Shown: positions 14,930 through 61,524 of the stretch, in pieces
Position numbering within the stretch: position 1 is the stretch's first letter
How the letters are laid out: the number at the start of each line of letters is the position of its first letter
Made by a program: the position numbers and the translations under genes
Notes under the pieces: model-generated
What the model saw: only the letters and a program-made list of their open reading frames with translations
Databases searched by the model: none
Told to the model about the DNA's origin: nothing
DNA from: Psammoneis japonica
Lineage: Eukaryota
NCBI GenBank assembly: GCA_008632985.1
Contig: QPGO01000160.1
Location: 1 to 64,000, forward strand
Reading direction: 5' to 3'
Length of the DNA: 64,000 nucleotides

Positions 14930-17150
14930 GCACTGCAGAGGCAGTGCGGGCTTTGGCAGTTGCTCTGCTCTCTAGAGTGGAGTGGAGCTGCTCTCTGCTC
15001 TCTACGGCACTCTCTGCTGCACTAGAGTAGAGGGCATCTGCCGGCAGGTGGAGAAGCCGGAAAGAACAGACCTCTCTTCAGACGACTGTGCGTGTCAACC
15101 GCAAAACGCACAACTGCTTGGGCAGAATTTTAGAAACACACCAGCCACAGTGGCAACACACAAGAAGCAGCCACGCCATCATGAAGACCAGTCACTGCTT
15201 TTTTGCAGAACACATTGTGTGCAATGCAAAAGAATGAGTGTTGTTGATCTCAGCTCTGTTGTGTCCAGTGCGGAACTGGCAAAAAAAAGCTCTTGGCATT
15301 GCCGATGGTGCACTGAGCTTGGGTCACTCACAGCGAGTCTGCACAAGAGGCAACAGCAGCTTTGTTGACCCAGCAGCATGTCAAAACCAGAGACAGTGTG
15401 TCGCCCATGACTGCTCTTGCCATCCTTGTGTGATGGACAGAGGAAAGGAAAGCCCAAAAAAAGGGGTGACACAGCAGCTGTCTTTTTTGACTTCTTGGAG
15501 CTTGGACCAGAGTTCATGCCACAATGCAACCCGCCACCCATGCCCACCACTTGCCACTGCACCCACTCACATCTGTGACAATTGACAATGCCAGCAACAG
15601 GGAAAAGGTCACATGGCACTGGTGCTGACTGTTGATGTGGAAAGAACAGACTCCAGCAATCCACAGATCAAACAACTGATTTCAGACGTCCAAGCTTCCA
15701 AAGCCAGCGTGCTTTCTGCTGAAGCAGCATCGTCAATTGCCAGCTGGCAGCCCAGCTGTTTGAATTGTTGCCTTTGCAACAGAAAATGCTCATCTCTTCT
15801 TAGAGTGGAGACAAGTTTTGGAAAAAAAAGAACAACAAGAGCTTTCCCCCCGGGCCTGGGCTGGAGGACCCACAGTCAGCCTTGCTTGCTTTGCACGGAC
15901 AAACCTTCTTGCTGTGCTGTGCAGTGCTGCAAAATGCTCCGCCTGTGTCTTGGCACAAATGCCAAAAGGACCTTGCTTTGGGAAGAGTCGTGCTGCCTTG
16001 CATCATTGCAACAGCTCCCATCACATTGTCTCCGTCCGTTGATCTTAGCCATTTTTCACTCCATTGCCAGTGGCTGTTGATGCTTGCAAGCCCTGCAAAG
16101 ACTTTCCAGCCTTCATCCTCTGAGTTGGACATTTTTCCACTTGGATCTTGGTGCAGCTTCTGTGTGGGGTGTCATTTTTTGATGACAGACTCTTGTTTCT
16201 TGCCACAACCAGTGCTGCAACATTCTTGATGGTGTTTGATTGCTTCCAAGTCCCTTGTGCTGTGCAGGCCCCCCCCATGTGTTCATTTTTTGGCATGACA
16301 TTAAGAATTTCTAGCTCTCTCTTTTGACTTGCTTTTTTTCATGATCAAATCATGCTTTGATCAGGGAGGGTGTTGGTGTGCCAAGAACAGAGAGGCCCAC
16401 ATCTGACAGACTGATGGGCAAAGTCCAAGCAACTCTCTCCACTCATTTCAGAAAGACGCAGTTGCAACAGCCACAGCTGGCTTCAATGATTTTTTGCCAT
16501 GAGCCAGCACCCTCAATCTCAAATGCCTCATGGTCTGCAAAATGACCGTGTCACAGAGGGATCCCATGAATTTCCAAACCAAACAAGGCTGGCAGGTTTG
16601 TCCCTGTGGTTGGGTGCTTGCATTGCACATTTCATTTTTCCAACCAGGCACAGCTCCATTGCTCAGAGCCGAATCCACCAAGCCAAAGTCATTCCACAAG
16701 CACCACAAATCTCCAGCACACAACAAGCTGCACCATCAATGCAGAGAAGCCAGAGCACAGCACTTGACATGGTCATCCACCAACCCACCAAACAACAGCA
16801 TGCTCAACTCTTTGGCATCAATGGCTTGAACTCTGCCATTGGGCAGTGAAGCACCATGGGCTGCACAATGTCTTTGTCATCATTGCAAAGAGCTGACAAT
16901 TCTGAATCTGACAAAACTTCTGTTTCTTCTGCCCCCAGCATGTCCTTGGATGAGTGCAAGAGAGACAGATCTGTCCAAGAATTGATTTGTGTCAGGAGAC
17001 TTGCTCCAATCCTTAAGAGCTTCCAACTCAGTCTTGTGGTTGATTGGCATGTGATGGGCTTTAATCCCAACTTGAGCATGGACTGTGTCAAGTCTGCAGC
17101 TGCATCATCAGTCATGACCAAATGTCACTCTGGTTGCAGAACATGACTGC
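14930..17150. mobile_element. Highly decayed unclassified repeat relic, TA- and CG-depleted
   Basis: Same compositional signature as the adjacent identifiable transposons; fragmented Cys/His-rich ORFs; no confident family motif. Confidence 0.45.
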
Positions 17151-20100
17151 AACCCAGACTCATCAATTTGTTTGGCTGATCACACAAAATGCTGTTTGAA
17201 AATCACAACAAACTTTTGCCACAATTTCCAGAACAACAACAAGGACAATGTCTGTTCACCTCTTTGCTGCCTGCATTGCTGCCAACCTGCAAGAGCTTTG
17301 CTCTCCCTGTCACACAACAGGACTGTCTCTCAACTGGTCACAGAGACCAATTTGTGCATTGGCGCCAAGCTCCCAGCCAAGTTTGTCATCATGGATGTTT
17401 TCTCTGAAGCAAACCCGGGAAACACAGCTGATTTTGAATCACCCATCTCATCTTCACATCCAAGAGAATGAGAGCCACATCTTCAACAACACCAGCAGCT
17501 CCAATTTCTATGAGTCTGGCTGCAGTGCCAAAGGTCCAGCTCATGAACAACCTCTGAATGATTTTCACCAACATCTCAAACCAGAGTCAACCACCACTGA
17601 CACCACCCATTCATGGAGGAATCCATCAGACTCATGGCACTCACATTGGCAGATCTCAGCAAGATGACAACGGCAACCAGACCAAGACACACACTTGCCA
17701 TTTTGCATCTCAGTGTTGTCACCCCAATGCTCTTGATTTGATCGAGTGCTCTCTCCGAGATCAACAAGCTTCTGCAATGACCTCCAAGTTCAACAGACAA
17801 ATTGAGATTTCAAATGGCCCCATCAACAAACCAGACAAGGATTGTTTTGTCAAGACTGTCCAGGATCCAGTCAAGGCTCATGGACAAGAAACATTCTGCC
17901 ATGTCAAGAAATTGGATGGCACTGCCATGCACATCTTTGATGACCTGCGCAAGTTTTTGGCAGCGGACATCAATGGCAAATGCTCCACTCGCTCCACAGC
18001 CTTGGACAACTCAGCCTGTGATGACATCAAGCTTGACAATTTCGGGCTGTCTCAGCTCCTGGTTCTGTCTAGAATCATGAATGCCTTTTGCAAGAAAATG
18101 GAAACCAAGTTCAACCATTTGAAGGACTGAAAGAACCACCCAGGCTCAGCACTGTTCATGATGGCTCTGGATTCAGCATGGAACATCAGTGCTCTAGCTG
18201 ATGTTGAGAGTGCAAAGAAGGAACTGGAGGACCTCAGTTTGGCCACCTGTCCTGCTGGTGAAGACTGCACACCAACTTTGCTGCCAAAGCTCTCAGCATC
18301 CTCAAGATCATGCAGACAGACTGCATGGCTCCAGTCAATGCTGGGTCCAAGATCTTGCACAAAGCTTCCAACACGTCCTCTGAGCACTTCAGTTGCTCAG
18401 TGCATGACAAGACCAACGAGTTCAAGAAGATGGAACACAAGTGTCCTCAAAGTGACCACCCAATCTTGGATTGGTGGGAATCATCATGTGGATTCAGGAA
18501 GAACACCGCAAGCTCATCAAGGATGGCAAGTGACCAGCTTTGGTCACCAAACTTCCTCCAGGGAATCTCTCCAAGTCTGACAATCCCAACAGTGCCAAGA
18601 AGTGTGTTGTGGGTGCAACCTGGAAGGCTGCATCAGATGCAACTGTCCAAAGTGCAAGGTGAGTCAGCCTCCAAAGGATGCCAATCCAGATCCAAAGCCC
18701 AGTTTCAGTCCCAAGAAGAAGAAGAGGCCAAGTCTTCCAGTGCAGCACTTGAAGTGTGATGGGGACACAATGACTGACAAGAGTGGAAAGGAATGGAAAA
18801 GTGGTGCACCAAGTGTGCAGCAAAGAGAGCTGAAAAGCTTGGACTCTGCCAACATCACTCCACCGTGGAGCACAAGAATGACTTCAAGTGACCTCCCAAG
18901 GAAGCACCAGTGTGCAACCTTTCTCAAGTCTTAGATCTCAACAGCAGTGTGCCCATGGGGCCACCAGCTCAGACTGCCAAGCAGCCTGATGTGGAGGAAT
19001 CTGACCCTGATGAGTTGGTGCACACGGGCATGTGGTGCATGGCTGCAGATGCTGTTGATGGCCCAAGTCTCCTTGCTGCCACTGTTCCCATGATGGCAAC
19101 AGTTGCTCCAGCACCTTTGGTTGAGAGGGAGAGTGACAAGGAAGTTGGTTTCAAAAAAAGTCTTTTCAAATTAAGCTCACAAAACACTTGCCCAGTCACA
19201 GATCCACTTGTGTCTCCAATCATGGTGGTTGAGACCATCACTCCCAAAGATGCCAATGACTTCTGTGAATGCTCTGACGGTTTGTCTGTGTTTGAAAATG
19301 ATCCACCAGCTGTTGAGTTGTTTCCGGCCTTGAAGCCACATTCCACCAATCACCCAGATCAGATCCATGATGCTCCCACCATCCTTCTTGCAGATGTGCT
19401 GTCAGATGCCATCAAGCTGGACCTCATTCTTGAAGATGAGCTGTGCTTTGAAGATGCGCGCAATGACTCACCACCAAGTGTTGCACACTGTGGCTTTGAT
19501 TTTTACAATCCAGAGAACCTTGACATGGATGATTGTCACAAGCATGGCAAAAAAGAGACCTCTTTGCATCAGTCAATTTTGGGACGAGCCAAACTCTTTG
19601 TGTTCTGGTTTGCTGGTGTGTTTTGGGAGATGGCACTGCATCTCTGCTTTGCCCCTGTCTTGTGTGTCCCTCAAGCTCTGCATTGCCAACACAAATGCCC
19701 TGCCTTGCACCAGTTTCTGGCCTCTTGAATGGTCCCATCTGCAGCAGTCATGGCATGGTCTGCAGTTTGTGTTGGTCAACAGCCCAAGCATCCATTCACA
19801 AATGTGCCAAGCTGCCTTTCACAGCTGGCTCTCAAGTCTACAACATTGTGGAGGAGCCAGATGACAAGATTGTGTCAGATGCTGGATCTCTGTTCAAGTG
19901 CAACAAGATCAAGGGCAGGCAGGTGCTCACCAAGTTTGTCACACGCCACCCATTGCATGTGCTGAGCGAGCTTCTGCAAAGCTGCTGAAAGACCTCCCAG
20001 AAGCAGTTGAATGGTCAGATTTGATTGGCAAATCAACCATCTTTGACACCCATGAGGAGTTGGAGCCTCTTGATGAGCAGAAGCACTTCTTCAATGTGCT

Positions 20101-20313
20101 TGAGGACTTCAGCCCTGATTTCTTCCAGTTTGATGAGAGCTCTGCATCCCTCATCACATTGTTGATGCCACTTGTTTTCAAGATCCCATTGCTCCATTGG
20201 AAGAAACATGTGCCAGGCCAGTTGTCTGCAATGCATCCACCATCCAGTGGCTTGCCAGCACATCCCAAGCCAAGCTGCTGGTGTCAGATCGCAGCTGCTC
20301 ATCAGCCCATCAG

Positions 20314-20437
20314 ATGAGACTCTGGCTGTCATCATGGATGCTGGCACCATGTTGGCCATCACCTGTGACAAAGACATGAGACTCTGGCCATCATCATGGG
20401 TGCTGGCACCATGTTGGCCATCACCTGTGATAAAGAC
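20314..20437 (+). repeat. 62-bp tandem duplication in the Copia protease region
   Basis: ATGAGACTCTGGC...CACCTGTGA(C/T)AAAGAC present twice. Confidence 0.9.
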
Positions 20438-23400
20438 AATTTTGCTGGACCTCTCATTGTCCCCAAGAAGCCTCCAAGGTGCTGGCCCAGTTGCCTGGAT
20501 CTTCACAATGCCAAGCGGTGCCACCATCCAGCTGAATGCCATGATGTGCTGCATCCCTGGTGCCTGACAACATCTGTCATTTGCCACAGTGCCTCTTCAA
20601 CAAAGTGAAGGGTGTCTGTGGGAAGCATGAGGATGACCAGCACAGTTTCAGACTGTGTGTTGATGGCACAGGGAAGTTGGAAGCCCCGTGTCATCCACAA
20701 AGCCACTTGCCTGTTGCACCAATGACCAAGGGGGTGTCTGAAGCTCCCCAAATGAAACCTGCTCATTCTCAATGAAAAGAATCAAAATCTGACAGCAGGT
20801 CAGAAGCTTTTGTCAGAGATGCACTCCCGTTTTGGTCATTTGAACTTTGGTTGTGCACAGAGGCCCTTCTCCGCTAAGTTCCTTTCTTGTCAGACTGGTT
20901 CAAGTGAGTGGCAAAGTGTGACCACCCAAGATGACAGTCCCTGAACACAATGGGTCCCTTCAAGCTGACCATTTGCAACCTGTTCAGGCTGTTGGTGTCA
21001 TTGATCATTTTGAGTCACACCTGCTGGGCCAAACCTTTGACTCATCCAGCAAAGCTGTGTCCAAGCAATTCAAGGGAGGGTGCATCTTCGCAGACCATGC
21101 CTCAGGACACCTTCATGTTGAACATCAACTGACTTTCTCCACTGCAGAGACAATTTGGGCAAAGCAAGCATTTGAGAAACATGCTCTTGACCATGGTGCA
21201 AAATCATTCAAGAATTTCTTGCCGACAGCGGTGCACTCAAGGCCAACTCTTTTGTCCAGCATGTGCAGGTGCACAAGTGACATCTTCAATTCTGTGGTGC
21301 TGATGCCCATCACCAAAACAGGGTTGCCAAATGCAGAGTTCATTCTGTCTCCAACATGGCAAGAGTGATGCTCCTTCATGCATCAATTCATTGGAAGGGA
21401 GGGGTCGACATTTCACTGTGGCCCATGGCTGCACCTCATGCCATGCACATCTGCCATGTCACTCCAAATGCTCAAGGGCATTGCCCAGTGGACATTTTCA
21501 CCGGCTCCACAGTGCCTTGACATCAGTTGACAGACAGCATTCACACTTGGGGATGTCCAGTGTGCATCCTTGACCCAGTCCTTGCACTCAGGAAGAAGCT
21601 GCCTCAATGGCAACCATGCACTCACCGTGTGCTTTTCATTCTTGGTTTGAGCATGATCCACTCAAGCGAGGTGCCCCTTGTGCTCAATCTTCAAACTGGA
21701 AGCATTGTTCCTCAGCGTCAGGTGGTTTTGGACAATCTGTTCACTGCTGTGCCATTGATCAAGAGGGAGACAGATCCACCCAACCACTTGGAGCAACTTT
21801 GTCTTGAGCAGTTGATTTGCATCCCTCTGGAGAAAGACCAGGCAGTCCACCTGCACAATGAGAGGCTTGTTCCTCCTGAACACCAATGCAAGGAGCAAAA
21901 ACTGGCCTGAGAGACTCACATTGAGGCACCTTCCAACCAACTCCATTGACGTCTGTGCTGGATCCACCTGTTCCTCCCAACAATGCATTGAATTGAGTCA
22001 TGCGCCCACAACAACTCCAGAGCTGGCTCCAGCTCCACCTCCAGCTCCACCTGCAACTCAAGACACTGTAGACTCTGCAGAGCCTGCACCAATTCAGCCA
22101 CCTCCTCCTCAGGAAAGTGACAAACTTCCACACCATCTGAAGCACCTCCCAAACCAACAGCATCTGCTCCAGTCAAAGCACCTCCCATGGTGAATTCAGA
22201 GGGAGAACCGGGGCTGCAACAGTCTTCCAGGTCAACCAAGGGACAGCTCCATTCTGCCAAGTTCACAGACAAAGTTTTTCTTAGCTCCGCCAAGGAAGAA
22301 GAGGTGCAGACATGACGCCAAGCTCATCCAGCATGTTTGGTGCTGCTCTTGAGACTGATTTGGATGCTGGCACATGCAACATTGGCAATCCCAGGGCTTG
22401 TGCAGCAAGCAAGAAGACCAAGAACCCTGATTTGCCTTCACCACACAATGCTCTGAAGGGTCCGGAAGCAGAAGAGTGGATCAAGGCAATGAAGATTGAA
22501 GTCAATGTGCTCATCCACCGATGAGCCTGGAAAGTGGTTGAATGCATGCCAAAAATGAGTGCATTCCCTGGCACATTGGCTTTCAAACTTAAGAGAGGCC
22601 ACCGGATGGAATGCCATTGAAGTGCAAGGCCTGACACTGCATCCGCGGTGATCTGCAGAAAGAGGGTGTGGATCATTTTGAGACCTGTGTGCCGGCAGTG
22701 CAATGGTCCAGCATGTGACTGATGCTCACTGCTGCATTGAAGGAAGGATGGACTGTGTGTCAAGCAGACTGCACCGCAGCCTTTTGCCAAGTGGATGTTG
22801 CCGAAAAAGTCTGCATGTCACCACCAAAGGGTTTCATGCCAAGGTCAGGACTCAATGTGGTCCTCAAGCTGCTGAGAGGACTGTGCAGCCTCAAGCAGTC
22901 TCCAAAGTGCTGTCATGAGAAATTGTGGGATGGTTCAATCAAAAATGCAGGTGGGCACCTTCAGCCACAGACCCTCATTTACACTTCAAGGAAGGCATGA
23001 TGTGCATCGTGCACATTGTCGACACGGCATTTGCTGTTGCATCAGCAGAAGCTCTGGAAGAGGAGATTCGCAAGCTGGGAGTCTCCAAAAATGAGCATCA
23101 CCATGCATTTGAACTTAGAAACAAAGGAGAAATTGGCAACTTTCTTGGCATCAAGATTGAAAAGCTCTCTGAGGGTCAATTTCTGCTCACTCAACCTGGT
23201 CTCATTGACAAGGTCCTGTGCACTGCCCAAATGCAGGATTGCAGTGGAGCTTCTGCTCCAGAACTGCCTGCGGCTGTTGGTGCCAACACGGATGGCCTGC
23301 CTTTTGATGAACCCTGCAATTGTTGTTCTGTGGTTGGAATGTTGGTGTGCTTGGTTGGCAGTGAACAGCCGGCCAGACATTGCATGTGCAACACATCAAG

Positions 23401-23654
23401 TTGCGCGTTTTTTGTTTTCACCCCGAGTGTCCCATGCTGCTGCAGCAAAGCAGATGCTTGTGTGTGTCAAAGCTGCTGCTGCTGATCAAGCCTGCACAAG
23501 ATCATCCAGTTGACTGTCATGTTGATTCTGACTTTGTGGGCTCATTCAGTGTCGAAGATGGGCAAGACCCAATTTCAGTCAAGTCCAGGACTGGATGTCT
23601 CATTTGGTGTTCCGGCTGTCCACTTGTGTGGGTGTCCAAGCTGCAGACTCTTGC

Positions 23655-24013
23655 ACAGCATTGTCAACTGTGGAAGCATGCATCTGGCAGTCAATGTCTG
23701 CACTGTCCCAGATGATTTTTGCAACTTGCACACCAGCCTGCACTTGTGCCCAGTCAGAATGAAAGAGCCAGCCCCACTCATTCCCACTGATGCAGGTTGT
23801 CATGATGCAGCAGGCCACAGAGCAGGTGGCAAAGTGATGCAACAATCAAGTGTCAGCCATGTGTTGAAAATAAGATGCATCATTGGCCACTGCATTGCAT
23901 GTGCCTTGCAAGCAGCTGTGCAGGCCAAGGCACCGGTGGTGGCATGCTTGGCATTGCAGCAGGCAAGAGGCTGGTTTGATGGTGGTGGCTGCTCCTCATG
24001 TTGCGCTGTCGCA
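23655..24013 (+). mobile_element. Insertion in Copia RNase H containing a Ngaro/DIRS-type RT-RNase H fragment
   Basis: DDFCNL...GCHDAAGHRAGG aligns with DDFRDL...GCHDAAGHGAGG of the Ngaro element at ~58840-58960; Copia frame resumes at AMHDLIPI. Confidence 0.65.
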
Positions 24014-24339
24014 GGCCATGCATGATCTCATCCCCATTTGTTAATTTCTGAAGGAGCTCAACTGCAGCGCATTCTGAAAGTGGCCACAACTCACTCCAAG
24101 GCTTTTGAGCTTGCCAACCAAGGCACCAATGACTCACCTGTCAAGCAGAATGTCCTGCATGCGTCTGTTGTGTGCAAAGACAACACCACACTGTGTGCCT
24201 CAAGTTTGCACATGTGCCCAAGTTGTCTTCACAAACCAGCACATTGGCATCCCTCATCACTGGTTTAGGACCAAAGTTGAACAATTGGAGATCGATGTCC
24301 AACCTGTCAGCACTCCAGAGCAACTGGCCAATCAGCTCA

Positions 24340-25560
24340 TGTGTGTTGACATTGTTGCGCTTCTTGCACACAAAACCTGTGTTGATCTGCTGATGTTGTG
24401 CATGTGAACTCAACAAGACACAGGGCAGCACCAATCTGAAAAAAATGTGCTTCACTGTGTTAAAAAAAACCATGACAATCCTCCACAATGACTGAAAATC
24501 TAAGAAGATCAAGCTTCTTGTCAAAAACTCTAGTTGAATGCTCAATCAGTGCTTTGTCAATGTGATCGAACAAGAAAATGCCATGACAGCTGCTGCCATG
24601 AATGGACCCGTTCATGCACAAACAACTGTCATGTCTGCAAAGGCAAGAATGTGGAGACAGGTCAATGCGACTGCGCTTGATGCAATCAAGTTGTCAGGTT
24701 TTGATTTTTTGTTGTCACTGTGGCTTGTGATGACCATGTTGACTGATGGCATTTTTGACATCTTCATTTCACTTGCTCAGATTTTGCATTGGGGTTCACT
24801 TGCTCAGATTTTGCATTGGGGTTCTTCACAAACCATGCATCTGCAGACTTGAGGCCAAATCTTTCACAGCAACACATGATCTGATGTCACACTGAGGTGG
24901 TTCTTTGGTGTGTGCTCAAGGTTGTTGCTTGGTTGACAGTCAAGAGCCAAGAATGCAAGATTTTTGGTCACGTCAACAATGACAGCAAGGCTTGCCCTCC
25001 ATTGTGATGGAGTGTGCTGACTGCAAAGAAGGCTGTGTGTGCAAATGTCCCGCTGATCTTGTCGCAAGCTGAGACAATGACGACGCTGGTGGGGGTCAAT
25101 GTTTTGCACAACATTGTTGGTGCTGCATCTCACAGTGCCTCACCCCATTGTCTGCAGCCCTTCTCCGCAACTTGCTCTGTGTTTCTTTGCTCTTTGAAAT
25201 GGATTTGGGCCATTGTGGCAAACCACAAGAGTTGAGAACAATGCCTTTTGGTGCCTCATGTTCTGCAGAATTTTCATTTGCCAGTTTTACATGCTGCAGT
25301 CTTGCTGCATGTTTCATCGTGCGTCTTTCTGCTCTCTCCGCAACTCTTGCCAGTGGGTTGAACGTTGGGTGCATTTCTTCTGACCTTCGCTGGCGTTGTC
25401 ATGAGTCTTGGGTTGCCGCGAGCAATCGCAAAATGGACAACGACGATTGTTGCTGACAATGTTGTGGTGTCTCTCTGGCCAGCAGCTCTGGCTAGAGCAG
25501 CAGTGTAAACAGTGCTGCAGCATGTGGCATCCTCACCGACCTCGACATGAGATTTTGACA
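24340..25560. mobile_element. Decayed unclassified repeat relic; contains a 27-bp tandem duplication at 24768-24821
   Basis: TA-depleted up to a sharp boundary near 25560; TTCACTTGCTCAGATTTTGCATTGGGG x2. Confidence 0.45.
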
Positions 25561-49704: not shown

Positions 49705-49991
49705 GGATTGAGCGGGCAACAATTTGGCTGCAAATTGCAGCCGACAATCACGAAACAAATCTTACCTCTACAAATGTGACGATGTAGGTGTATACATGTG
49801 GCATTGTTATACGAGGAAATAATGCTGTAGTGAACATAATGTTGGAAACAGCATCAAATTGTAGCCTGCTGTTTAGCATCGTTGTTTCTCGTTGTGGTTG
49901 AGATGTGTCTTGGATCTTCGCCATCTCCGTATGGTGCTACACAGAATTACGTACGTAGAATGGTACATGCGTTTGTACCGGCATACCAAAA

Positions 49992-53249: not shown

Positions 53250-54887
53250 GTCTAAAATGTCTGGCTGTCATCCGCACACAGTCTTACCATGTGAGTTGTT
53301 TTTGTTGTCACAAGGTGGAGGAAATTTGATGCCACCATGCTGGGCAGTTATTTTCACTTTCCATGCTGTTTGTCATGTTGGGCGGTTGCTTCTCCAACAA
53401 CTGATTGAGCAAATGATTCCCATGGAGTCTGCGCAACAATGCTCGTTTTTTTGTTTTTTTGCTGATGCCTCGGCGGGGGCAAATGTGCGCTAGAACATGT
53501 TTTTTGGCAACGTGCAAATTGACAAAATTTTCCATTTTTTGTGCATCACCGGGCCCTGGAACACATCAACAGCATCCACTCTAACATTGGCACTTGTGAT
53601 GGCGTCGCGGCTGGTGGTGCCATGCTCAACTGCCAAGCGCTGCTTTGCACACAAAAAATCTGTGTGGGCATCGTCAACAACTTGTTGGAATTCTTGGAGC
53701 CCCTTCCATGGTGCAAAGTGGCAACATTTTGCAGCTGCAATGACAAAACAACATGGGAACCACCTCACATCTCAATTTGGTGCTCAACAAGCAGTGCTTG
53801 CAAGCAGGTGCTCAAGTTGGGGTGTGGAGACTTTCATGTGGCAAAATTGGCCAAAGAAAAGAGTTGGCAGAACATGGGTCATCTCAGTTGTTGTTGGTGG
53901 GGTTTGATTGTGAAAACTCTGCACCACCTGCTGAACAGATTCTGCTGCACAAATGTTGTGGTTGACACTTGACCTTCAATCAAGAGCTGCCCAAGAGCCA
54001 TCATTTGTTTTGCCCCAATTTGTTGGCAGGGATGGCAGGGCTTCATTTTGAGAGAGGAGGAGCCATCTTCTCACAATTTTTGCAGCAATTGGTGGCAAGG
54101 ATGCAACAAAAAGTCCCAAATGTGTTGCTCAGAGTCAGTTTGTGATGCAAACCTGTGGTTCACAGTGTGCTTGCGCAGCTGCAAACCAGACATTTTTGCA
54201 CACAAAAATGAAAGAAAAACTCAGTGTTTTGCATCTCCATTCAGCCCCAGAGGTGAAGAGCACATTTGTTGCAGGACATCATGTTGTTGAGAATTTTCTG
54301 GTTGAGGCTGTTGGGAGGACAGGAAGCTGCCGCTTTTCCACACAGCTCAGCAACACACAGCTTGAGTTGTCACTTTGGAAGCGCAGATCTTTCTGTGACA
54401 GCACCTGTTTTTGGTTTGGCAACTTCAGGTGAGTGACAAAAAAGCACTCAAAATGACAGTGTTGAAAATGCTTTGGCTCTTGTGTGCAGGTTGAAGTGTC
54501 TCACCTCACTTTGGAAATTGTTGGAGCTGTGTGCCACAAAGTTTCAATTTTTTTTGTGTCTGCCACCGCAAATTCACATGGCAGCAAGACAAGTTGTGCT
54601 CTCTCCAGGCAGTCAAACAGGAATCACCCCCTTTTTGTGCCATCACCTTGGCCTTCACCAATGTAATTGACTGGGGCATCATTTCCGTCTGTGCTGGTTG
54701 CTGCTGAACGGTGAATTTGTGCAGTGCCATGAGATCTGGTGGATGATGGTGCATGCCAACAGGAGGACCGGGCGCCTTCCTGAGCCACCGGTCATGCTCA
54801 CAATTGCATGTGTTTGGCATCTGAGCTCTTTTTTGAAAACCTCATTGTTGCAATGGAAATCTGATGGAACAAAATCATCCGGTCTCA
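53250..54887. mobile_element. Old unclassified repeat relic, homologous to 33240-34350 and 41295-41660
   Basis: Collinear shared sequence blocks; TA/CG-depleted. Confidence 0.65.
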
Positions 54888-55099
54888 CTGGCCTCGAAAA
54901 GTTGGTCATCGGTGCCCCACAGAAAAACCGTTGAAAATGACCCTCTGACCTCGGGACAATTTGTTTCCCTGTTGCACCTCTCATTCTTCCGAAGAGCAAA
55001 GCAACAACCAGATAGTTTTAATCGCTGTCTTGAGGCTGAGGATGCCTTCAGCCGCATTGTTTGTTGTGTTCGCTCACAGGGATGCCACATTTCATTGTG

Positions 55100-57308
55100 G
55101 CAAATGTGCCACCACCACCAGGAGCAGGACAAGGACCGCCACCTGCGGTGAATCCGAATGCAGGAGGTCAACCGGCACAAGCCGCAGCACCTCACGCAAA
55201 CGTTGCACCACAACTGGGGGCAGCCCAACCAGTGCCACCAGTTCATCCGGTGCAAGGAGGAGCTGGAGCACTGCCCCCACCGGTGCAGCCAGTTGCTGCG
55301 CCGCCCCAGCAGCCACCGACAGTGCCCTTGCCAATGCCGGTCATCGACACATGCCAGGCATGCCACTCCACGATCAACGATGACCCGCATGGCGGTGAAT
55401 GTGCCAACCCGATGTTGGATTTTGCGGCTGTTGTAAATGGCAATGCAAGGCACGGGGCGAACGTGCTTGTGGAACGAGTCGCATCTGCCTCGACGCACAA
55501 CATGCCCATGGCTGTGGTTCTCCACTGCTGCGACCCCAACGCAGACGCGGCGGATCCGGGCCGCATTCAAGTCTGCCATCGCATTGCTCTGCATCCAACC
55601 ACGGTCGCAGGGCCACCCCAGCCATGGGATTGTGACCTTCCCGGATGCGCATTTTGCGTTGGCCGCACCAGGGACTTGGGTTCCTGCTGATGCGGCTCTA
55701 GCAGCTCATGTCACCGCTGTGCCCGATGGGTTGCACCCGGCTGCAGCAGCGCACGATGCAGACTCAGAGGAGGCACGGACGAGAGGAACCATGTTCGTGC
55801 CCTTCAATTTGGTCAAGCTGCTGCCACCAGAGCCGTTGACCCCCAAGGAGGTGTGCACTCACGCACATGGAGTGCTTGACGCAGCCAACAAAGTGGCCAA
55901 TTGCCGGGCACTTCTGGATTTTCTTCGCATCGCATGTGTCGCGACACAAGCCAGTGGCGAGGAGTCGGCGGTTTGCATGGAGTGGCCTGCTCTCCCGCAA
56001 CCGCCTGACGAGCATCTGATTCGTTTCTTTGATCAACGCGTGCAGCATGACCTTCCTGGATTCAAGGCACCGGCTGCACCGGGACCGCAGTTCCAGCCGG
56101 TCATTCGTGCTGTCGACGACCTCACCGCGGAACAACGGCAACAGCGTTTGGATGCCCAAGCCCACCAACAGGCTGCCGATCGCGGAAAGATGCCGGTGCA
56201 GTTCTGCGGAGAACACAGCATCATAAAACTTGTGAGATTGTGCCAGGTGCATCAAGAGAATCAGCTTCCGCCCTTTTGGCAACGTTTGGCCACTGCACCC
56301 AAGACTGGGCAGATCGCCACAGTGCAGAATGCTGTGGACGAGCAACGCCAGGCACAGAACGTGCACTTTGAGGTCCCAATTTCAGTCAGCATGGTCACCA
56401 AGCTCATTCAACTCTCATTGGCCGGACATGACAAAGACAATCTCACCCAAGGTGTCAATCCTTTCATTTTCGGACTTGCCACTCCTCAACAGGTGGAACA
56501 GATTGCGCGCCGTGCGGCCATGTGCCACCAGATTCACGGTGGAATGGGCATGCCCTCCCTGTCCGACACTGTGGTTCTTGAAGCACCGGACGACGCGAAG
56601 GTCACCACCACTGTGCAGGCGGTCCAGCATTCGCTTGATGGACTTTGGGTGGTCCTGTCTGCGGCCTCAGGTGCCACCCACCCGGTCGTCCGTTACCTCA
56701 TGGACCTTCACCGCTCTTTGGACGTTTACGTCAATGATCTTGCACTGCAGATGATGCACTGCCCTGCGCTGCCTGCAGATTTCCAGCGCTGTGTCCAGAT
56801 CGAAATCCATCATTGGTTTGAGGATCAAGAATCCATGCATAATCCCGCTCCATTCACGCCCAAGAATGTCATCTACGAGGTGGCCAAGGGTGCCATGAAT
56901 TGGCAGCATCCACTGCCAATCGCCGTCCGACCCCAAGCCCCACCAACATGCGGCCCGACGGGACCGCTTCAGCACTCTGGATCGCCCCAAGCACCTGCAC
57001 CCACATCCGCTGGGCAAGCTCAGACCCCGGGCGACAACTCTGTTGTTCGCAATGAGAACTGCGATGACCGTTTTTCTGCCGTTCGTGACTGCCCGAACGT
57101 GCGCTCATGTGATGTCAAGCAGCGCTGCGCTCGCAACAACATTGCCTTGCCCGTTGACTCGAATGGCACTGCCTGTTGCCTCCCCTGCCACATCAAGGGC
57201 CAGTGCAACACCAACCGTGGTTCCCGCAATGACCATCACGGACGCCACACCGATGCAGAGCAGGCTGCACTCTTAGAGTGGGCCACGGAGCATTGGAAGA
57301 CCGAATGA
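55100..57308 (+). pseudogene. Ngaro gag-like ORF1 with C-terminal Cys/His finger
   Basis: Pro/Gln/Ala-rich start, frameshift near 55630, CLPCHIKGQC...NDH. Confidence 0.7.
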
Positions 57309-59520
57309 GAATTCGGCAGCGGTGTCGGTTCGGGGACCGACTGTCTTTTCATCTGGAACTGGTGATGGCTCCAGACCCGCCACCCCCGCAGGCAGAGAAC
57401 CCATGCGCTCAGCAGAGCCATGGTCGTCCCACCCTTTGTGGGCAAACCATTGCTGGCTCTGAGCTGGACAAATTGGGTGAGCAAATTCTTGAGGACACTT
57501 CTGCACTTCGTCAAAAAGGTCTCAGTTACCTCCTTTGCCATCGTGGGAAGAGAGGAGACTGGGGTCAGCTCTGCAAGGCCGCAGGGCATCCAGCCCACAG
57601 GCTCTTGCGCCACTGCCGAACACGGGGAGCGCCCATCACGGTCGCCGATTCCCCGTGGACGGCCGAAGAGCTAGAAGCAAGCATCGCCAGGGGGCCACAC
57701 AAGTCCGCTTACGAGCACATCGATTTTTTGCAGGAAGACATGCACGACTGCGTTGAGAAAGGTTTTTGGGTTGTGCTGCCGTACGATGAGGTGAAGAGCA
57801 TTCCTGGTCCACGCATTGGCCCGATGGGAGTTGCACCACAACATGCCAGACGGCCCCGTCCCATTGTTGATTGCTCCCACTTTGGGGTCAATCAAGCCAC
57901 GCAGCCCAACGCCCCCATGGGGGCAATGCAATTCGGCTGGACTTTGGACTGCCCACTTTGGCGTGTCCTCCTCGCCAACCCGAAAAAGGGTCGAGTCTAT
58001 CTGATGAAGATTGACCTTTTGGATGGCTTCTACAGAGTCTTCTTGTCTGAAGATCGTGCACCTTTGTTGGGCGTTTCTTTCCCACACTCACCAGGCGAGC
58101 CACGCCTCGTGGCCATTCCGACATGTCTGCCCATGGGATGGACTGATTCGCCACCGATCTTCAGTGCAGGTACAGAGACTGTGGCTGACTTGTCAAATCA
58201 GGCCTTGCTCCATAATGTCACAGCACCGCCACACCGATTGGAGAAATTCGCCGAGAGCCGTCCACCGACACATCAACCGACGCCGCCATCGGACCCTGCG
58301 CTCTCTGTTCCCGTTCCACCCAAATCCGACCCACATCTAAACCACTCTAAACGTCGGCGTTTAGCGTGCATCGACGTTTATGTTGACGACTTTATCGGTG
58401 CAGCACAGGGCGACAAGACCGCCCGCCGCAACGTGCACTGAGTTGTCATGCATGCCATCGACGACATCTTTCGCCCCACCGATTCCCATGACTCGCCCAC
58501 TCGCAAGGAGCCCATGTCCGTCAAAAAGCTCTGCAAGGGCAATGCAACGTGGACCACACAGAAGGAGGTCCTCGGTTGGTTGATCGACACTCAGTCGATG
58601 ACCTTGCGGCTAACACCACGCCGCCGAGAGCGCCTTCGCCAAACACTGCACCAGGACTTTCCCCGGAGCCGCCGCCGCACCACTGTCCTTGATTGCCAGA
58701 AGCTCTTGGGCGAATTGCGTTCGCTCGCTGTTGCCTTGCCCGGAGCCCGAGGACTTTTCTCCGTTCTGCAGGAGAATCTCCGCCACGCTGCACCCGACAC
58801 ATGCCTCCGGCTTGCGGAGAACGTGCGCACCATTCTTGATGATTTTCGAGACCTCTGCACAATGCTGGATGCACGCCCCACCCGCATTCAAGAGCTGGTC
58901 CCATTGGAACCTGCTGTTGGTGGTTGTCACGACGCAGCCGGCCATGGTGCTGGTGGCGTCCTCCTGCCAACTCCCACAGCCACGCCACGGGCCACTCAAC
59001 TCCACACTGGCACCGGACGTGTCCGCCCTCACACATGCCTGGGCCCCATTGCATGGCGCATGCCCTTTCCCAGGGACACAACTGCCAGACTTGCCACCTG
59101 CGAGAATCCCAAGGGTCCCATCACCAACACCAACCTTGAGCTCGCAGGCAGCTTCATTCAGTCCTGCGCCATCGCGGATTGCTGCGACATCAGGGAACGA
59201 ACCTTCCTTTCCCGCACCGACAACCTCGGCACCATGTTTCAGCAACGCAAAGGAGCCAGCACGACCATCAAACCAGCCTCCCATCTCCTCCGGGGCCAAG
59301 CATGCCACCAACACTGTCGCCGTTATGTTGGCCTCCACGACTGTCTCCCCGGCTGCCTCAACGGCGCAGCAGACGATGCTTCTCGCATGCAACGCCTCTC
59401 TGACACTGATTTCTTGCACCATTTTGACTCTGCTTGTCCACAGATCTCCTCCTGGCGAATGTGGACCCCACCACCCGCGCTGCGTTCATTCGTGATCTCA
59501 GCGCTGCGCAGCATGCCGTT
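57278..59520 (+). pseudogene. Ngaro reverse transcriptase and RNase H
   Basis: KIDLLDGFY, LPMGWTDSP, YVDDF, HDAAG, LELAG, TDN, NGAADDASR; in-frame TGA at 58439. Confidence 0.9.
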
Positions 59521-60605
59521 GCCCATGGCGTCACTGCTTCAAGATCCTCCGCCGCCGACACCCACTGGAGTCTCTGGTCCAACTTCTGCACCCAACTGGC
59601 CCTCGATCCACTCCTCGAAGACGTTTCCGACCCCGTCATCTACCTTCAAGTCTTCCCACATCGGTTCCGAACTGGCGCCATCGCCCCCCGCGGAAATCCC
59701 ATCCGCGCACGCACCGCTGAGGATGCCGCATGTTCGGTTGGACAAACGTTTGTGGCAATGGGGACCAAAGACCCCCGACTCACATCCCAAGGCCAATTGG
59801 ACTTCCGCCTTAGCCAACAAATTCGCTGTTGTAAGAAAGAGGATCCTCCACCCGACCGGGTCAAACCAGTCCCCGTTGCAGTTCTCTTTTGGGTGCTCCA
59901 TGCCGCCGCAATCACACCCCATGTTGGAACAAAAGCCATTGCCAGCATGATTGCGCTGGCTCACTTTTTTCTCCTTGGCCTGGTGAATGCACCGCCACCC
60001 CATCTGACACCACCCCCTTCCGCCTCGCTGATGCACGGCTCTCCTCGGGCAGTGTTTACCTTGACATTTGGACAGCCACCGACGCCCAACTCAATGCCGC
60101 CACATTCGCAACGCTTGCATTCACCGATCAAAAGAACGGCGTCCGCGGTGAAGTCATCAGTTTAGGCTGCTCTGACCACCCCCAATTTTGCCCTGTCCTC
60201 GCGCTCATTGAGCGCGTCAAGCACCTTCGTGCTCATGGAGCGCTCCCAGACTCCCTGCTGGGAGTTTGTTTTGCCAATCATCGATGGCATCGTGTTTCAC
60301 TGGTGGACATCTCCTCCATGCTGCGCACCGCCATCGTTGCCATTGGCCCCGCCAACCTGGGTTTCAACCCCACCGACATCTCGGCCCGTTGTCTCTGCGC
60401 CGCCGGTGCCATGACTTTGCTTTGCGCCCTCGTTGACACCGACGTCATCCGGCTCTTGGGCCGGTGGCAATCGGACGAGATGCTTCATTGCCTTCATCTC
60501 CAGGCTGAACCCATCATGTGCAACTTCGCCAGATGCATGTTGGCAGGTGGAGATTTCGTCCTCCACCCAAATGCGGAGGTTCCCGTTCACCCGGAACCTC
60601 CGTGA
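59434..60605 (+). pseudogene. Ngaro tyrosine recombinase, frameshifted
   Basis: HFFLL/PGEC, DQKNG, CPVLAL, SARCLCAAGA, GRWQSDEMLHCLH. Confidence 0.85.
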
Positions 60606-61524
60606 TTCACCACCAGCCCGCTGGCCGGGCCCACCCACCCACCCAAGACTCGTGGCCCGTTCCGACTCCACATCTTCATTGGGAGGCGCTGGCGGCCCTG
60701 CCATCCAGCTTGGGATTTGGAGAGGCGTCATGTGCACTGGTGAAGCACTCTCCACTCCCAACCGCCTGTCCCACTCACCACCTAGCCTCCCAATCCGGGT
60801 CGACCGAAGGACGAACGAGAAAAGCGGCGGCAGCCGCTGGCCTCGAAAAGTCCAACGGACGAGAGGGGCCTGTGACCGTTGGTCATCGGTGCCCCACAGA
60901 AAAACCGTTGAAAATGACCCTCTGACCTCGGGACGATTTGTTTCCCTGTTGCACCTCTCATTCTTCCGAAGAGCAAAGCAACAACTAGACAGTTTTAATC
61001 GCTCCCACCTCTCCCGCCCTCTGGCCCTGCCGTCCAGCTTGGGATTTGGAGAGGCGTCATGTGCACTAGTAAAGCACTCTCCACTCCTAACCACCTGTCC
61101 CACTCACTACCTAGCCTCCCAATCCGGGTCGACCGAAGGACGAACGAGAAAAGCGGCGGTAGCCGCCCAGAAACGTCTACAACAGGCTAAAGAGCAATCA
61201 ACCTTGTCTTATGAAAGTTACAGAACAAAAATCATGAGAACCCTCCAACCATTGAGACAAAGCCATTCATAGTTATGCATGGAAGGTGATGCGTCCTGTG
61301 GAAGAAGAGAAGAATGGAATAACAACCACACGAAAAAGGACCAGCTTTTGCGCAAAGTTGCAATTCAGAGAACGAGTTCTCAACGCACGGGACGAGCTGT
61401 TGCTTTCAAGTCCAGGGACTAGGCTACAAGTGGAATCTAACCGCAAGGGTTGTTTTCAGATTGTGCTTCGCCTCAATCCATTATTGACATTTCTACACCG
61501 CCCAAATCACCATGATGATTATTT

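What the first reader, a model, noticed from the sequence alone, without database searches (positions are those of the whole stretch)
14930..61166. Transposon-restricted TpA->TpG/CpA hypermutation: a candidate RIP-like genome defence acting on A:T pairs
Seen: all four transposon islands (14.9-25.6, 33.2-46.0, 46.6-49.8, 53.3-61.1 kb) almost lack TA, while host genes and spacers keep it, and the borders are abrupt. Unrelated classes (Copia, Gypsy, Ngaro, DDE transposon) show Cys (TGY) or His (CAY) where the family motif normally has Tyr: GHKKIRVHLVCDVK, GLCSLKQ, DKGH, EMLHCLH. The 623-aa Ngaro ORF has only 3 Tyr. Known: fungal RIP and 5mC deamination give C->T, and RIP creates TpA; this is the opposite direction. 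Inference: a host process drives A->G at TpA on both strands in silenced repeats, e.g. adenine deamination or error-prone Pol eta-type (WA->WG) gap filling. I know of no description of this but cannot search the literature.
Basis: partly seen in the sequence, partly recalled or inferred. Interest (0 to 1): 0.95.

Follow-up and report, generated by a model that had tools for sequence, protein, structure and literature searches.

The report
Transposon-restricted TpA-to-TpG/CpA hypermutation
Every transposon in this stretch of a protist-like genome has had its TA dinucleotides turned into TG or CA after it inserted, the reverse of fungal RIP and so far reported in only one 2026 preprint on another alga.

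Summary
TA observed/expected is 0.04 in 17.9 kb of old transposon debris and 0.20 in 14.2 kb of younger elements, against 0.62 in host DNA. TA-free gaps reach 1,529 bp and the borders are tens of bases wide.

The direction is TA to TG/CA:
- At 27 columns where relatives conserve Tyr, three unrelated elements (Copia, Ngaro-like, DDE_Tnp_4) keep 12. Seven are Cys and five His. Other conserved residues are kept at 557 of 626.
- 78 of 80 metagenomic Copia relatives have normal TA content.

The change is post-insertional and at DNA level. LTR and terminal-repeat pairs differ at 21 positions, none a transversion, and 16 are TA-type. A DNA transposon is hit too, and both strands are hit equally.

Older islands have also lost CpG (0.17), at a rate several-fold slower.

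The same signature was shown by mutation accumulation in Bigelowiella natans (bioRxiv 10.64898/2026.01.13.699255). This window probably comes from a different organism, so it is a new member of a very recently described kind.

The enzyme is unknown. An adenine deaminase with a T-A-Y preference is my leading guess. Pol-eta-type repair, RNA editing, inherited composition and artefact are disfavoured.

The parts
14930..25400 (.). Class A island 1: old, ORF-less mosaic of degenerate retroelements; TA and CG both almost erased
   Evidence: TA frequency 0.0031, CG 0.0103, CA+TG 0.228. RVT_2 fragments at 22719-22997 and 22919-23482. Ngaro-like RT fragments at 23642-23995 on both strands.
33200..34350 (.). 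Class A island 2, left part; interrupted by the Copia insertion
   Evidence: TA frequency 0.0052. Resembles 53853-54484 at 67-79% identity.
34351..41294 (+). Copia-type LTR retrotransposon, young, nested in class A. LTRs 34351-34627 and 41018-41294, TG..CA ends, 5-bp target duplication CTCAT at 34346-34350 and 41295-41299
   Evidence: LTR pair 96% identical. TSD and ends. RVT_2 E 9e-29 in ORF 39037-41067. Full-length relatives align to 36258-40956. TA o/e 0.31, CG 0.92. Very high summed word depth in run X1.
41295..46022 (.). Class A island 2, right part; holds the longest TA-free gap (44494-46023)
   Evidence: TA frequency 0.0023, CG 0.0061. Reproduced by X1 contigs at single-copy depth, with 0 and 1 other letters over 1.5 and 3.4 kb. 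Abrupt right border.
46950..49800 (+). Internally deleted DDE_Tnp_4 (PIF/Harbinger-like) DNA-transposon remnant; TA-depleted, CG near normal
   Evidence: ORF 48178-49701 has 660 relatives. 5 of 9 scanned relatives carry DDE_Tnp_4. Relative P0261 aligns by residues 10-396 and 938-1445 only. TA frequency 0.013. X1 word depth 85-99 against 53-73 in the adjacent unique bins.
53350..54889 (.). Class A island 3, left flank of the Ngaro-like insertion
   Evidence: TA frequency 0.0019, CG 0.0149. Paralogous to the flanks of the Copia.
54890..61166 (+). Ngaro/DIRS-like retroelement with split direct repeats: 54901-55026 = 60878-61003 and 60694-60837 = 61023-61166. The pol ORF 57233-59947 is broken by one in-frame TGA at 58439-58441
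   Evidence: Repeats. 120 listed relatives at 40-62% identity, many with RVT_1. TA frequency 0.0062, GC 0.585. In-frame stop. A tyrosine recombinase was not verified.
9007..14510 (-). Internal control: tandem duplication of a Cys-rich host gene (9007-10613 and 12905-14510, 97.6% identical) that is NOT hypermutated
   Evidence: 38 mismatches: 20 transversions, 7 TA-type, 7 other transitions, 4 CG-type.

Best explanation
SHOWN: after integration, transposons of unrelated classes in this genome undergo DNA-level transition hypermutation at TpA, giving TpG or CpA. The affected classes are Copia, a Ngaro-like element, a DDE_Tnp_4 DNA transposon and older unclassifiable debris.
- Either strand is hit with about equal probability.
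- There are no long strand-coordinated tracts.
- The affected tract ends within tens to a few hundred bases of the element border.
- The process never creates a stop codon, so dead elements keep long open frames while Tyr becomes Cys or His.
- The rate is about 300 times the background rate of other sites and about 7 times the CpG->TpG/CpA decay in the same elements. Young insertions are therefore TA-poor but CG-normal, and old ones have lost both.
- Surviving TAs show a flank gradient: RTAY is most depleted, YTAR least. This fits an additive per-strand preference for T-A-Y over T-A-R of roughly 2.6 to 1.

INFERRED: the agent is a host enzyme recruited by the silencing state of foreign or mobile DNA, not by sequence duplication as such. 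It is most likely a DNA adenine deaminase (A to inosine, read as G) of the tRNA-A34 deaminase (TadA/ADAT2) type. The natural substrate of that type is an A preceded by the invariant U33 (recalled knowledge). CpG loss is a separate, ordinary 5mC-deamination process in the same chromatin.

My odds: the phenomenon as described 0.93; adenine deamination as its chemistry 0.45.
For: Depletion: TA o/e 0.04 and 0.20 in the islands against 0.62 in host DNA.

Direction:
- At columns with at least 80% Tyr in relatives, the elements keep 12 of 27. That is Copia 8 of 18, Ngaro-like 2 of 5 and DDE 2 of 4, with 7 Cys, 5 His and 3 other. Other conserved residues are kept at 557 of 626. Fisher p = 6.5e-8.
- 80 metagenomic relatives of the Copia RT have a median TA o/e of 0.67 (range 0.31-1.02). 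The closest, L001 (75% identity), has 0.84.

Post-insertion timing:
- The three TE repeat pairs differ at 21 positions, none a transversion. Twelve are single TA<->TG/CA changes, 4 positions form two CA-versus-TG doublets, 4 are CG-type and 1 is another transition.
- The Copia LTR had at least 8-10 TA at insertion against 16.2 expected at o/e 1. That is host-like content.
- Events per site-copy are TA 12 of 34, CG 4 of 76 and other sites about 1 of 870. I derived these.

DNA level and both strands:
- A DNA transposon is affected.
- Cys 7 against His 5, and TG about equal to CA.

Flank gradient: the TA share of YR steps is
- host 0.218 / 0.178 / 0.126 for RTAY / mixed / YTAR;
- class B 0.022 / 0.040 / 0.052;
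- class A 0 / 0.009 / 0.030.
Chi-square p = 1e-18 for class A and 2e-7 for class B.

Not an assembly quirk:
- X1 k-mer contigs at about 65x reproduce 41268-46325 with at most 1 difference.
- Two unrelated environmental contigs, L039 and L066, show the same low TA (0.31, 0.33) and Tyr->Cys/His at different columns. Across the 80 relatives, Cys occurs at those columns only in these two, and the other 78 keep at least 15 of 18 Tyr.

Precedent: mutation-accumulation lines of B. natans show 230 of 231 de novo mutations in two integrated viral regions as A->G or T->C. All of those GC-biased changes lie at TpA, at about 6e-7 per site per generation. The authors propose an ADAT2-like deaminase (preprint Results and Discussion).
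Against: - No enzyme, modified base or chromatin mark can be examined. No genome is held for this window.
- The product rule predicted by a T-A-Y preference (YTAY->TGY, RTAR->RCA) is met at only 7 of 11 informative sites from the repeat pairs and X1 variants. This is my count, and it is not significant. At conserved Tyr codons, which are all TAY, Cys does not exceed His clearly: 7 against 5 here, and 5 against 8 in L039 plus L066.
- In the Copia RT frame the surviving TAs favour Tyr codons, 15, 8 and 7 by codon phase. Part of the depletion may therefore have been inherited from a lineage that kept transposing under this pressure, and not all of it arose in this copy.
- Among X1 copies one product dominates at each site (66-74%). 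That also suggests shared descent or a strong site bias.
- X1 may be the sample the window was assembled from, so it is not fully independent.
- YTAR survivors could partly be new TAs made by C->T at CAG/CTG.
Confidence: 0.6

Rival explanations
1. The same targeted TpA hypermutation, but the chemistry is on the T. A TET/JBP-type dioxygenase oxidises thymine at TpA (and 5mC at CpG) in silenced DNA. 5-Formyluracil or 5hmU then mispairs with G and gives T->C, read as A->G on the other strand.
For: - TpA is its own complement, so T->C and A->G cannot be told apart from sequence.
- The two dinucleotides lost in the oldest islands, TpA and (methylated) CpG, are both 5-methylpyrimidine-purine steps. 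One enzyme could in principle touch both.
- Recalled, not from any call: base J and 5hmU sit at TpA in kinetoplastid telomeres and in dinoflagellates.
Against: - CpG and TpA decay are separable. Young elements lose TA with CG near normal.
- Many metagenomic relatives have CG o/e 0.1-0.5 with normal TA.
- The B. natans lines showed TpA changes only, and the preprint's main text holds no occurrence of 'CpG'.
- No enzyme could be looked for here.
Confidence: 0.2
2. Error-prone or biased repair and not a dedicated editor: Pol-eta-type WA->WG synthesis, biased mismatch correction, or GC-biased gene conversion acting in heterochromatin.
For: - The changes are AT->GC transitions confined to a chromatin domain.
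Against: - AA and TT are not depleted in the islands (o/e 1.11-1.19), and AT is 0.86-1.00. The motif is therefore TA, not WA.
- Gene conversion bias would act in every context and raise GC broadly, yet class A has GC 0.49 against host 0.47.
- None of the 21 differences between TE repeat pairs is a transversion.
Confidence: 0.08
3. RNA-level A-to-I editing (ADAR-like, 5' U preference) of retroelement transcripts, fixed by reverse transcription.
For: - ADAR-type enzymes prefer U before the edited A (as the preprint's Discussion notes).
- Two of the affected elements replicate through RNA.
Against: - A DDE_Tnp_4 DNA transposon is equally affected.
- The two LTRs of one insertion, identical at integration, now differ almost only at TA.
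- Both strands are hit equally (Cys 7 against His 5; TG about equal to CA).
- The tracts include old non-coding debris.
Confidence: 0.03
4. No host mutator: these families are intrinsically TA-poor (inherited composition or selection), or the pattern is a sequencing or assembly artefact at modified bases.
For: - Surviving TAs in the Copia RT favour Tyr codons. This shows some selection in the transposing lineage.
- Only one study's runs hold this DNA.
Against: - 78 of 80 relatives are TA-normal.
- Conserved Tyr are replaced by Cys/His at 12 of 27 columns.
- LTR pairs diverged at TA after insertion.
- Four unrelated element types share the signature.
- K-mer contigs at about 65x depth give the same letters. 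Two independent metagenome assemblies show the signature, and Illumina-based mutation accumulation shows it de novo in another species.
Confidence: 0.04

Closest known systems
TpA hypermutation of integrated viral DNA in Bigelowiella natans (Mettrop et al., bioRxiv 10.64898/2026.01.13.699255, version dated 2026-04-14). I read the abstract, all of Results and Discussion, and ran term searches; supplements were not seen.
   Same: - Exclusively TpA->TpG/CpA transitions on both strands.
- Confined to foreign or mobile DNA with local borders.
- About 1000-fold above background.
- The long-term footprint is TpA depletion with CpA+TpG excess. Its TpA-depleted CDS subgroup has a mean TpA frequency of 0.0018 and is enriched for DDE and RT domains. 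Class A here has 0.0019-0.0052.
   Different: - Probably another organism. Host ORFs here are long and intron-poor, and the host GT7 protein has no near-identical entry in a 5.8-billion protein collection (best 49%). B. natans' high intron density and public proteome are recalled, not from a call.
- Here the targets are transposons of every class, with near-complete TA erasure over 10-kb tracts, nested insertions that give a time order, and co-occurring CpG loss. The preprint's main text holds no occurrence of 'CpG'.
- A flank gradient (RTAY > mixed > YTAR) appears here. The preprint's main text holds no 'flanking', 'trinucleotide' or 'context'. Its supplementary mutation table, which I could not see, may bear on this.
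Repeat-induced point mutation (RIP) of ascomycete fungi
   Same: Works like it in outcome. It is a DNA-level, dinucleotide-specific transition hypermutation that permanently disables integrated mobile DNA and leaves a dinucleotide footprint.
   Different: - Opposite direction. RIP is C->T, mainly at CpA, and creates TpA and AT-rich DNA. Here TpA is destroyed and GC rises.
- RIP makes stop codons; this process cannot.
- RIP is triggered by duplication. Here a 1.6-kb, 97.6% identical tandem host duplication is untouched.
- No strand-coordinated runs are seen.
5-methylcytosine deamination at CpG in methylated transposons
   Same: It is present here as a second process. CG o/e is 0.17 in old islands. 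Arg->Cys/His occurs at 4 of 30 conserved Arg in the Ngaro-like pol. CG-type changes make up 4 of 21 repeat-pair differences.
   Different: - It does not explain TA loss.
- Per site it is about 7-fold slower here.
- It is separable from TA loss in relatives.
AID/APOBEC and ADAR editing defences of animals
   Same: Enzymatic base deamination used against viruses and retroelements. ADAR shares the 5' U/T preference.
   Different: - APOBEC is C->U on single strands and gives strand-coordinated clusters.
- ADAR acts on dsRNA.
- Here the substrate is integrated chromosomal DNA including a DNA transposon, with no strand coordination.

Membership tests
TpA->TpG/CpA hypermutation of foreign DNA (B. natans type) | Changes are A->G / T->C transitions confined to TpA | tested here: met
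   16 of 21 mismatched positions between TE repeat pairs are TA-type and none is a transversion. Only TA, plus CG in old islands, is depleted among the 16 dinucleotides. Tyr->Cys/His at conserved columns.
TpA->TpG/CpA hypermutation of foreign DNA (B. natans type) | Both strands are affected (TpG and CpA products) | tested here: met
   TG o/e 1.83 and CA 1.84 in class A. Cys 7 against His 5 at conserved Tyr. LTR differences of both kinds.
TpA->TpG/CpA hypermutation of foreign DNA (B. natans type) | Restricted to integrated foreign or mobile sequence, with neighbouring host DNA spared | tested here: met
   Islands coincide with a Copia, a Ngaro-like element, a DDE_Tnp_4 remnant and TE debris. 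Host genes between them have TA o/e 0.4-0.9. Sharp borders.
TpA->TpG/CpA hypermutation of foreign DNA (B. natans type) | De novo rate about 1e-7 to 1e-6 per site per generation, seen in only some lines | not testable with these tools
   This needs mutation-accumulation or pedigree sequencing. The only indirect figure is TA events about 300-fold above other sites in repeat pairs (derived).
Fungal RIP | C->T (G->A) transitions, mainly at CpA, creating TpA and AT-rich DNA | tested here: not met
   TpA is destroyed, not created. GC of affected elements is 0.49-0.585, not lowered. The direction is polarised by relatives.
Fungal RIP | Triggered by sequence duplication | tested here: inconclusive
   The tandem host duplication (1.6 kb, 97.6%) has an ordinary spectrum, and the DDE island is near single-copy by word depth. 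Copy number at the time of mutation is unknown.
ADAR-type RNA editing fixed by retrotransposition | Sense-strand-only A->G in elements that pass through RNA | tested here: not met
   The DNA transposon is affected, both strands are hit, and the divergence of LTRs arose after integration.
Pol-eta-type WA->WG mutagenesis | A mutated after either T or A (WA motif) | tested here: not met
   AA o/e is 1.17 in class A and 1.11 in class B, against 1.14 in host DNA.
Ngaro/DIRS-like retroelement (label of the 54.9-61.2 kb element) | Split direct repeats (A ... B A B), an RT, and a tyrosine recombinase in place of an integrase | tested here: inconclusive
   Repeat layout met. RT met through relatives carrying RVT_1. 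No recombinase domain was detected in any ORF. The definition itself is recalled.

The most novel reading that the evidence does not exclude
TpA editing of silenced mobile and viral DNA is a widespread genome-defence system of marine protists, not a peculiarity of one chlorarachniophyte. It would be carried out by one heterochromatin-recruited enzyme with a T-A-Y (RTAY) preference. It acts fast enough to erase essentially every TA from an element, while never creating stop codons.

In its boldest form the same machinery handles both 5-methylpyrimidine-purine steps (TpA and 5mCpG). This would explain why both vanish into TG/CA in the oldest islands.

The window's organism, B. natans and the two environmental contigs L039 and L066 would be four independent sightings.
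Probability: 0.15. Interest if true: 0.9.

Novelty: new member of a known kind. Interest (0 to 1): 0.7.

Why it matters
Targeted A:T->G:C hypermutation of chromosomal DNA is a defence principle known from a single 2026 preprint, and no enzyme has been identified for it.

This window adds several things:
- It shows the process in what is probably a second organism.
- It shows the process acting on all transposon classes and not only integrated viruses, and going to near completion.
- It supplies natural time points: a young Copia with a target duplication and 96% identical LTRs sits inside old debris. These order TA loss before CpG loss and give relative rates.
- A flank preference (RTAY most depleted, YTAR least) narrows the search for the enzyme.

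There are practical consequences too:
- Such elements keep long open frames but carry Cys/His for Tyr, so gene callers and domain models mis-annotate them. Pfam missed most domains here.
- A TA-loss plus Tyr->Cys/His screen can find the process in metagenomes. It flagged 2 of 80 relatives here.
- A natural DNA adenine editor with a defined motif would also interest base-editing work.

Tried and rejected
- Whole-genome analysis: no genome is held for this window.
- Earlier notes of this scan: nothing found by place or by words.
- Organism identity: the two atlas look-ups gave only weak leads (scores 0.84 and 0.76). The host GT7 ORF has a single relative at 49%. I therefore infer only 'probably not B. 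natans'.
- Reading the ORF-less class A islands through their stops with Pfam was not accepted (76 stops). What they contain was instead outlined with tblastn of fetched relatives. Most of class A stays unclassified.
- Pfam on 165 stop-to-stop ORFs of at least 90 aa in the islands found only RVT_2 and a weak RVT_1, plus two sub-threshold matches I take as chance (GH97_N, SVIP). No integrase, protease or recombinase was found.
- Strand-coordinated clustering: the runs test on the TG/CA series gave z between -2.0 and +1.2 in the islands, so there is no kataegis-like tract.
- Product rule for T-A-Y: 7 of 11 informative sites fit, which is not significant.
- Class A paralogue comparison: 59 TG/TG, 55 CA/CA and 14 CA/TG steps. 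Most states are shared by descent, so it adds little.
- Sequencing runs: no RNA holder is listed. Run X2 behaves like RNA (one 89-nt GT..AG joint on the minus strand, cover on host genes only) and X3 is tiny. The lack of X2 cover over the islands is not evidence of silence. The very high summed word depth over the Copia (60,000-127,000 against about 65) is not a copy number, as the tool warns.
- Literature: five searches combining TpA/TpG/CpA, hypermutation, depletion, transposable elements, retrotransposons, diatom, adenine deamination, A-to-G, genome defense and Bigelowiella. Apart from the one preprint they returned only RIP and RNA-editing papers.

Full report
OBSERVATION

A 1-kb profile of the window and a 200-bp count show four tracts in which TA almost disappears. 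They fall into two kinds.

- Class A covers 14930-25400, 33200-34350, 41295-46022 and 53350-54889, in all 17,888 bp. TA o/e is 0.04 (52 TAs in all), CG o/e is 0.17, and TG and CA are 1.83 and 1.84. GC is like the host's (0.49) and there are no long ORFs.
- Class B covers 36200-41294 of a Copia, 46950-49800, and 54890-61166, in all 14,223 bp. TA o/e is 0.20 and CG is nearly normal (0.85). GC is 0.49-0.585, and long ORFs run in several frames.
- Host DNA (29,104 bp) has TA 0.62 and CG 0.98.

TA-free gaps of 1529, 1194, 1082 and 1025 bp have probabilities of 1e-29 to 5e-20 at the host TA frequency. The borders are abrupt. No TA lies between 44494 and 46023, and 39 lie in the next 280 bp.

No other dinucleotide is depleted. 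AA and TT stay at 1.11-1.19.

WHAT THE TRACTS ARE

34351-41294 is a Copia element:
- It has 277-bp LTRs that are 96% identical, TG..CA ends and a 5-bp target duplication, CTCAT.
- ORF 39037-41067 matches RVT_2 at E 9e-29.
- Full-length relatives align over 36258-40956.

54890-61166 has the split direct repeats of Ngaro/DIRS-type elements. Its 905-codon pol frame is broken by one TGA, and relatives of it carry RVT_1. A recombinase was not detected.

46950-49800 is a remnant of a PIF/Harbinger-like DNA transposon:
- Its 508-aa ORF has 660 relatives.
- 5 of the 9 relatives I scanned carry DDE_Tnp_4.
- A 1446-aa relative aligns only by residues 10-396 and 938-1445, so the copy is internally deleted.

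Class A holds RVT_2 and Ngaro-like RT scraps at 22.7-24.0 kb and is otherwise unrecognisable.

The Copia and the Ngaro-like element each sit inside class A sequence, and their flanks are paralogous to one another. Class A is therefore older and class B younger.

DIRECTION OF CHANGE

I aligned each element's protein with its relatives and asked what the window has at columns where at least 80% of relatives agree.

| Element | Relatives aligned | Conserved Tyr kept | Replacements |
|---|---|---|---|
| Copia RT | 120 | 8 of 18 | 5 Cys, 3 His, 1 Glu, 1 Phe |
| Ngaro-like pol | 120 | 2 of 5 | 2 Cys, 1 His |
| DDE element | 77 of 150 retained | 2 of 4 | 1 His, 1 Leu |

All other conserved residues together are kept at 557 of 626, against 12 of 27 for Tyr. 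Fisher p = 6.5e-8.

In the Ngaro-like pol 4 of 30 conserved Arg are Cys or His, which is the CpG signature.

At DNA level, 80 metagenomic loci that encode relatives of the Copia RT have a median TA o/e of 0.67 (range 0.31-1.02). The closest, at 75% identity, has 0.84. The window's copy has 0.31. TA-poverty is therefore derived, and the change is TAY->TGY/CAY, that is TA->TG/CA.

TIMING AND LEVEL

The two LTRs of one insertion are identical at integration. The Copia LTRs now differ at 11 positions:
- five single TA-versus-TG/CA changes;
- two CA-versus-TG doublets (four positions);
- one CA-versus-CG change;
- one other transition.

The two Ngaro repeat pairs differ at 10 positions, seven TA-type and three CG-type. 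In all, 21 positions differ and none is a transversion.

The Copia LTR pair has 3 shared TAs plus 5 (or 7, counting the doublets) that have been lost in one LTR (for the doublets, apparently in both). The LTR therefore carried 8-10 TAs at insertion, against 16.2 expected at o/e 1. That is the host's level.

Counting events per site-copy in the three pairs gives these rates, derived:
- TA: 12 of 34;
- CG: 4 of 76;
- all other sites: about 1 of 870.

TA thus mutates about 300 times faster than background and about 7 times faster than CpG. This explains why young elements are TA-poor with CG intact and old ones have lost both.

As an internal control, a tandem duplication of a host gene (9007-10613 and 12905-14510, 97.6% identical) differs at 38 positions. 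Twenty are transversions and only 7 are TA-type.

Three points place the process on integrated DNA and not on RNA intermediates:
- A DNA transposon is affected.
- Both products are equally common (Cys 7 against His 5; TG about equal to CA).
- LTRs diverge after integration.

A runs test on the TG/CA series finds no strand-coordinated tracts (z -2.0 to +1.2).

FLANKING CONTEXT

Surviving TAs are not a random sample. As a share of all pyrimidine-purine steps, TA is as follows:

| Region | RTAY | RTAR/YTAY | YTAR |
|---|---|---|---|
| Host | 0.218 | 0.178 | 0.126 |
| Class B | 0.022 | 0.040 | 0.052 |
| Class A | 0 | 0.009 | 0.030 |

As raw counts, class A has 0 RTAY, 19 mixed and 33 YTAR survivors, against 389, 675 and 200 in host DNA (p = 1e-18). 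The window's Copia also differs from its 78 TA-normal relatives in this respect (p = 7e-4).

The log survivals are additive. An independent per-strand preference for T-A-Y over T-A-R of about 2.6 to 1 would give that pattern.

The product bias this predicts is met at 7 of 11 informative sites (my count). That is compatible with the preference but not significant. Some YTAR survivors may also be new TAs.

IS IT REAL DNA?

Only one study's runs hold this sequence. Contigs of run X1, at a word depth of about 65, reproduce 41268-42792 and 42917-46325 with 0 and 1 other letters. Such k-mer contigs argue against a noisy-read base-calling artefact at modified bases. X1 may be the assembly's own sample.

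X1 differs from the window at 10 listed single-copy sites. All are transitions: 4 TA-type, 4 CG-type and 2 other. Three of the TA-type differences lie in the host spacer at 31158, 31612 and 32376, where the window has CA and X1 has TA. This hints at ongoing activity, but its direction cannot be polarised.

Across the many X1 contigs of the Copia family, sites where the window keeps TA carry CA or TG in 17-74% of the depth (66-74% at four of the five such sites). Several sites are split between CA and TG.

Independent support comes from the 80 metagenomic relatives. Exactly the two with TA o/e below 0.4 also carry Cys/His at the 18 conserved Tyr columns, and at different columns from the window:
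- L039: TA o/e 0.31; 9 Tyr, 4 Cys, 3 His.
- L066: TA o/e 0.33; 10 Tyr, 1 Cys, 5 His.

The other 78 keep at least 15 Tyr, and Cys occurs at these columns only in L039 and L066.

WHAT IS KNOWN

Five full-text searches found one description: Mettrop et al., bioRxiv 10.64898/2026.01.13.699255. I read the abstract, Results and Discussion and ran term searches. Its supplements were not available to me.

In 15 mutation-accumulation lines of Bigelowiella natans, 231 of 302 nuclear point mutations fell in an integrated giant-virus region and a virophage region. Of those, 230 were A->G or T->C, and all of these lay at TpA. The rate was about 6e-7 per site per generation, and only some lines were affected.

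The preprint also reports 324 TpA-depleted CDS (mean TpA frequency 0.0018) enriched for DDE and RT domains. It proposes an ADAT2-like adenine deaminase.

The window is probably not B. natans. Its host ORFs are long and nearly intron-free. The host GT7 ORF also finds no near-identical protein in a 5.8-billion collection (best 49%). B. natans' intron density and public proteome are recalled, not from a call.

New relative to the preprint's main text:
- action on all transposon classes, to near completion;
- the time order from nested insertions and LTR pairs;
- the coupled but slower CpG loss;
- the flank gradient;
- the absence of effect on a duplicated host gene;
- two environmental sightings.

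MECHANISM

Shown: a targeted, post-integration, DNA-level, strand-symmetric TpA transition process with sharp domain borders.

Inferred: the process is recruited through the silencing state of mobile DNA, and its chemistry is deamination of adenine to inosine. The 5'-T requirement and the T-A-Y preference recall tRNA A34 deaminases, which see U33-A34 (recalled knowledge). Thymine oxidation (5hmU/5fU pairing with G) explains the same letters and cannot be excluded.

Disfavoured:
- Pol-eta WA->WG synthesis, because AA is not depleted;
- gene-conversion bias, because the effect is context-specific and GC barely changes;
- RNA editing;
- inherited composition;
- artefact.

One consequence follows from the genetic code. 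TA->TG/CA cannot create a stop in any frame and removes TAA/TAG. This explains the many long overlapping ORFs in dead elements and the poor Pfam recognition.

VERDICT

It is a new member, probably in a second lineage, of a kind described only in a 2026 preprint. The enzyme is unknown.

Noticed in passing
window 9007-10613 and 12905-14510 (minus strand): Tandem duplication (spacing 3898 bp, 97.6% identical) of a gene for a repetitive Cys-rich protein. It has about 11 units built around GACC...C...C...G.KC...CP, joined by Pro/Thr-rich linkers, and has no Pfam match. I used it as the unmutated control.
   Followed up: partly
window 34628-35404: The N-terminal (gag-side) 255 residues of full-length Copia relatives align to the MINUS strand here, while the rest of the polyprotein is on the plus strand. 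The 5' part of this copy seems inverted or rearranged. The same 5' region (34.4-36.2 kb) keeps more TA than the rest of the element.
   Followed up: no
window 31158, 31612, 32376: Three fixed differences between the window (CA) and run X1 (TA) within 1.2 kb of host spacer or gene, about 1 kb from a TE island. All are in an A-(C/T)-A context and give the same strand product. This could be spill-over of the TpA process into neighbouring host DNA, but the direction is unknown.
   Followed up: partly
window 46084-46300: A TA-rich stretch with a TA every 4-6 bp starts within 60 bp of the end of a 1.5-kb TA-free tract. It is fully intact, which shows how sharp the domain border is. TRF did not call it as a tandem array at score 60.
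   Followed up: partly
window 25318-25493 and 14842-14973: Border zones of 100-200 bp where CpG density is already normal, or even high, but TA is still absent. The TA-affected domain seems to reach slightly further than the CpG-affected one.
   Followed up: no
window 26164-29009 and 49959-53000: Host gene neighbourhood suggesting glycan synthesis. Two tandem GT7 (beta-1,4-galactosyltransferase-like) ORFs lie together. A TPT-family transporter ORF is directly followed by a polysaccharide pyruvyl-transferase ORF, and an atlas cluster with both domains fused exists.
   Followed up: no
L039 and L066 (metagenome loci): Two environmental contigs carry Copia relatives with the same TA loss (o/e 0.31, 0.33) and Tyr->Cys/His at conserved columns. 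The process therefore operates in organisms sampled in nature. Their hosts are unknown.
   Followed up: partly
L047, L027, L005, L021, L008, L049, L046 (metagenome loci): Several Copia relatives have strong CpG depletion (o/e 0.10-0.26) with TA o/e 0.41-0.66. CpG decay without comparable TA loss is common in this family elsewhere.
   Followed up: no
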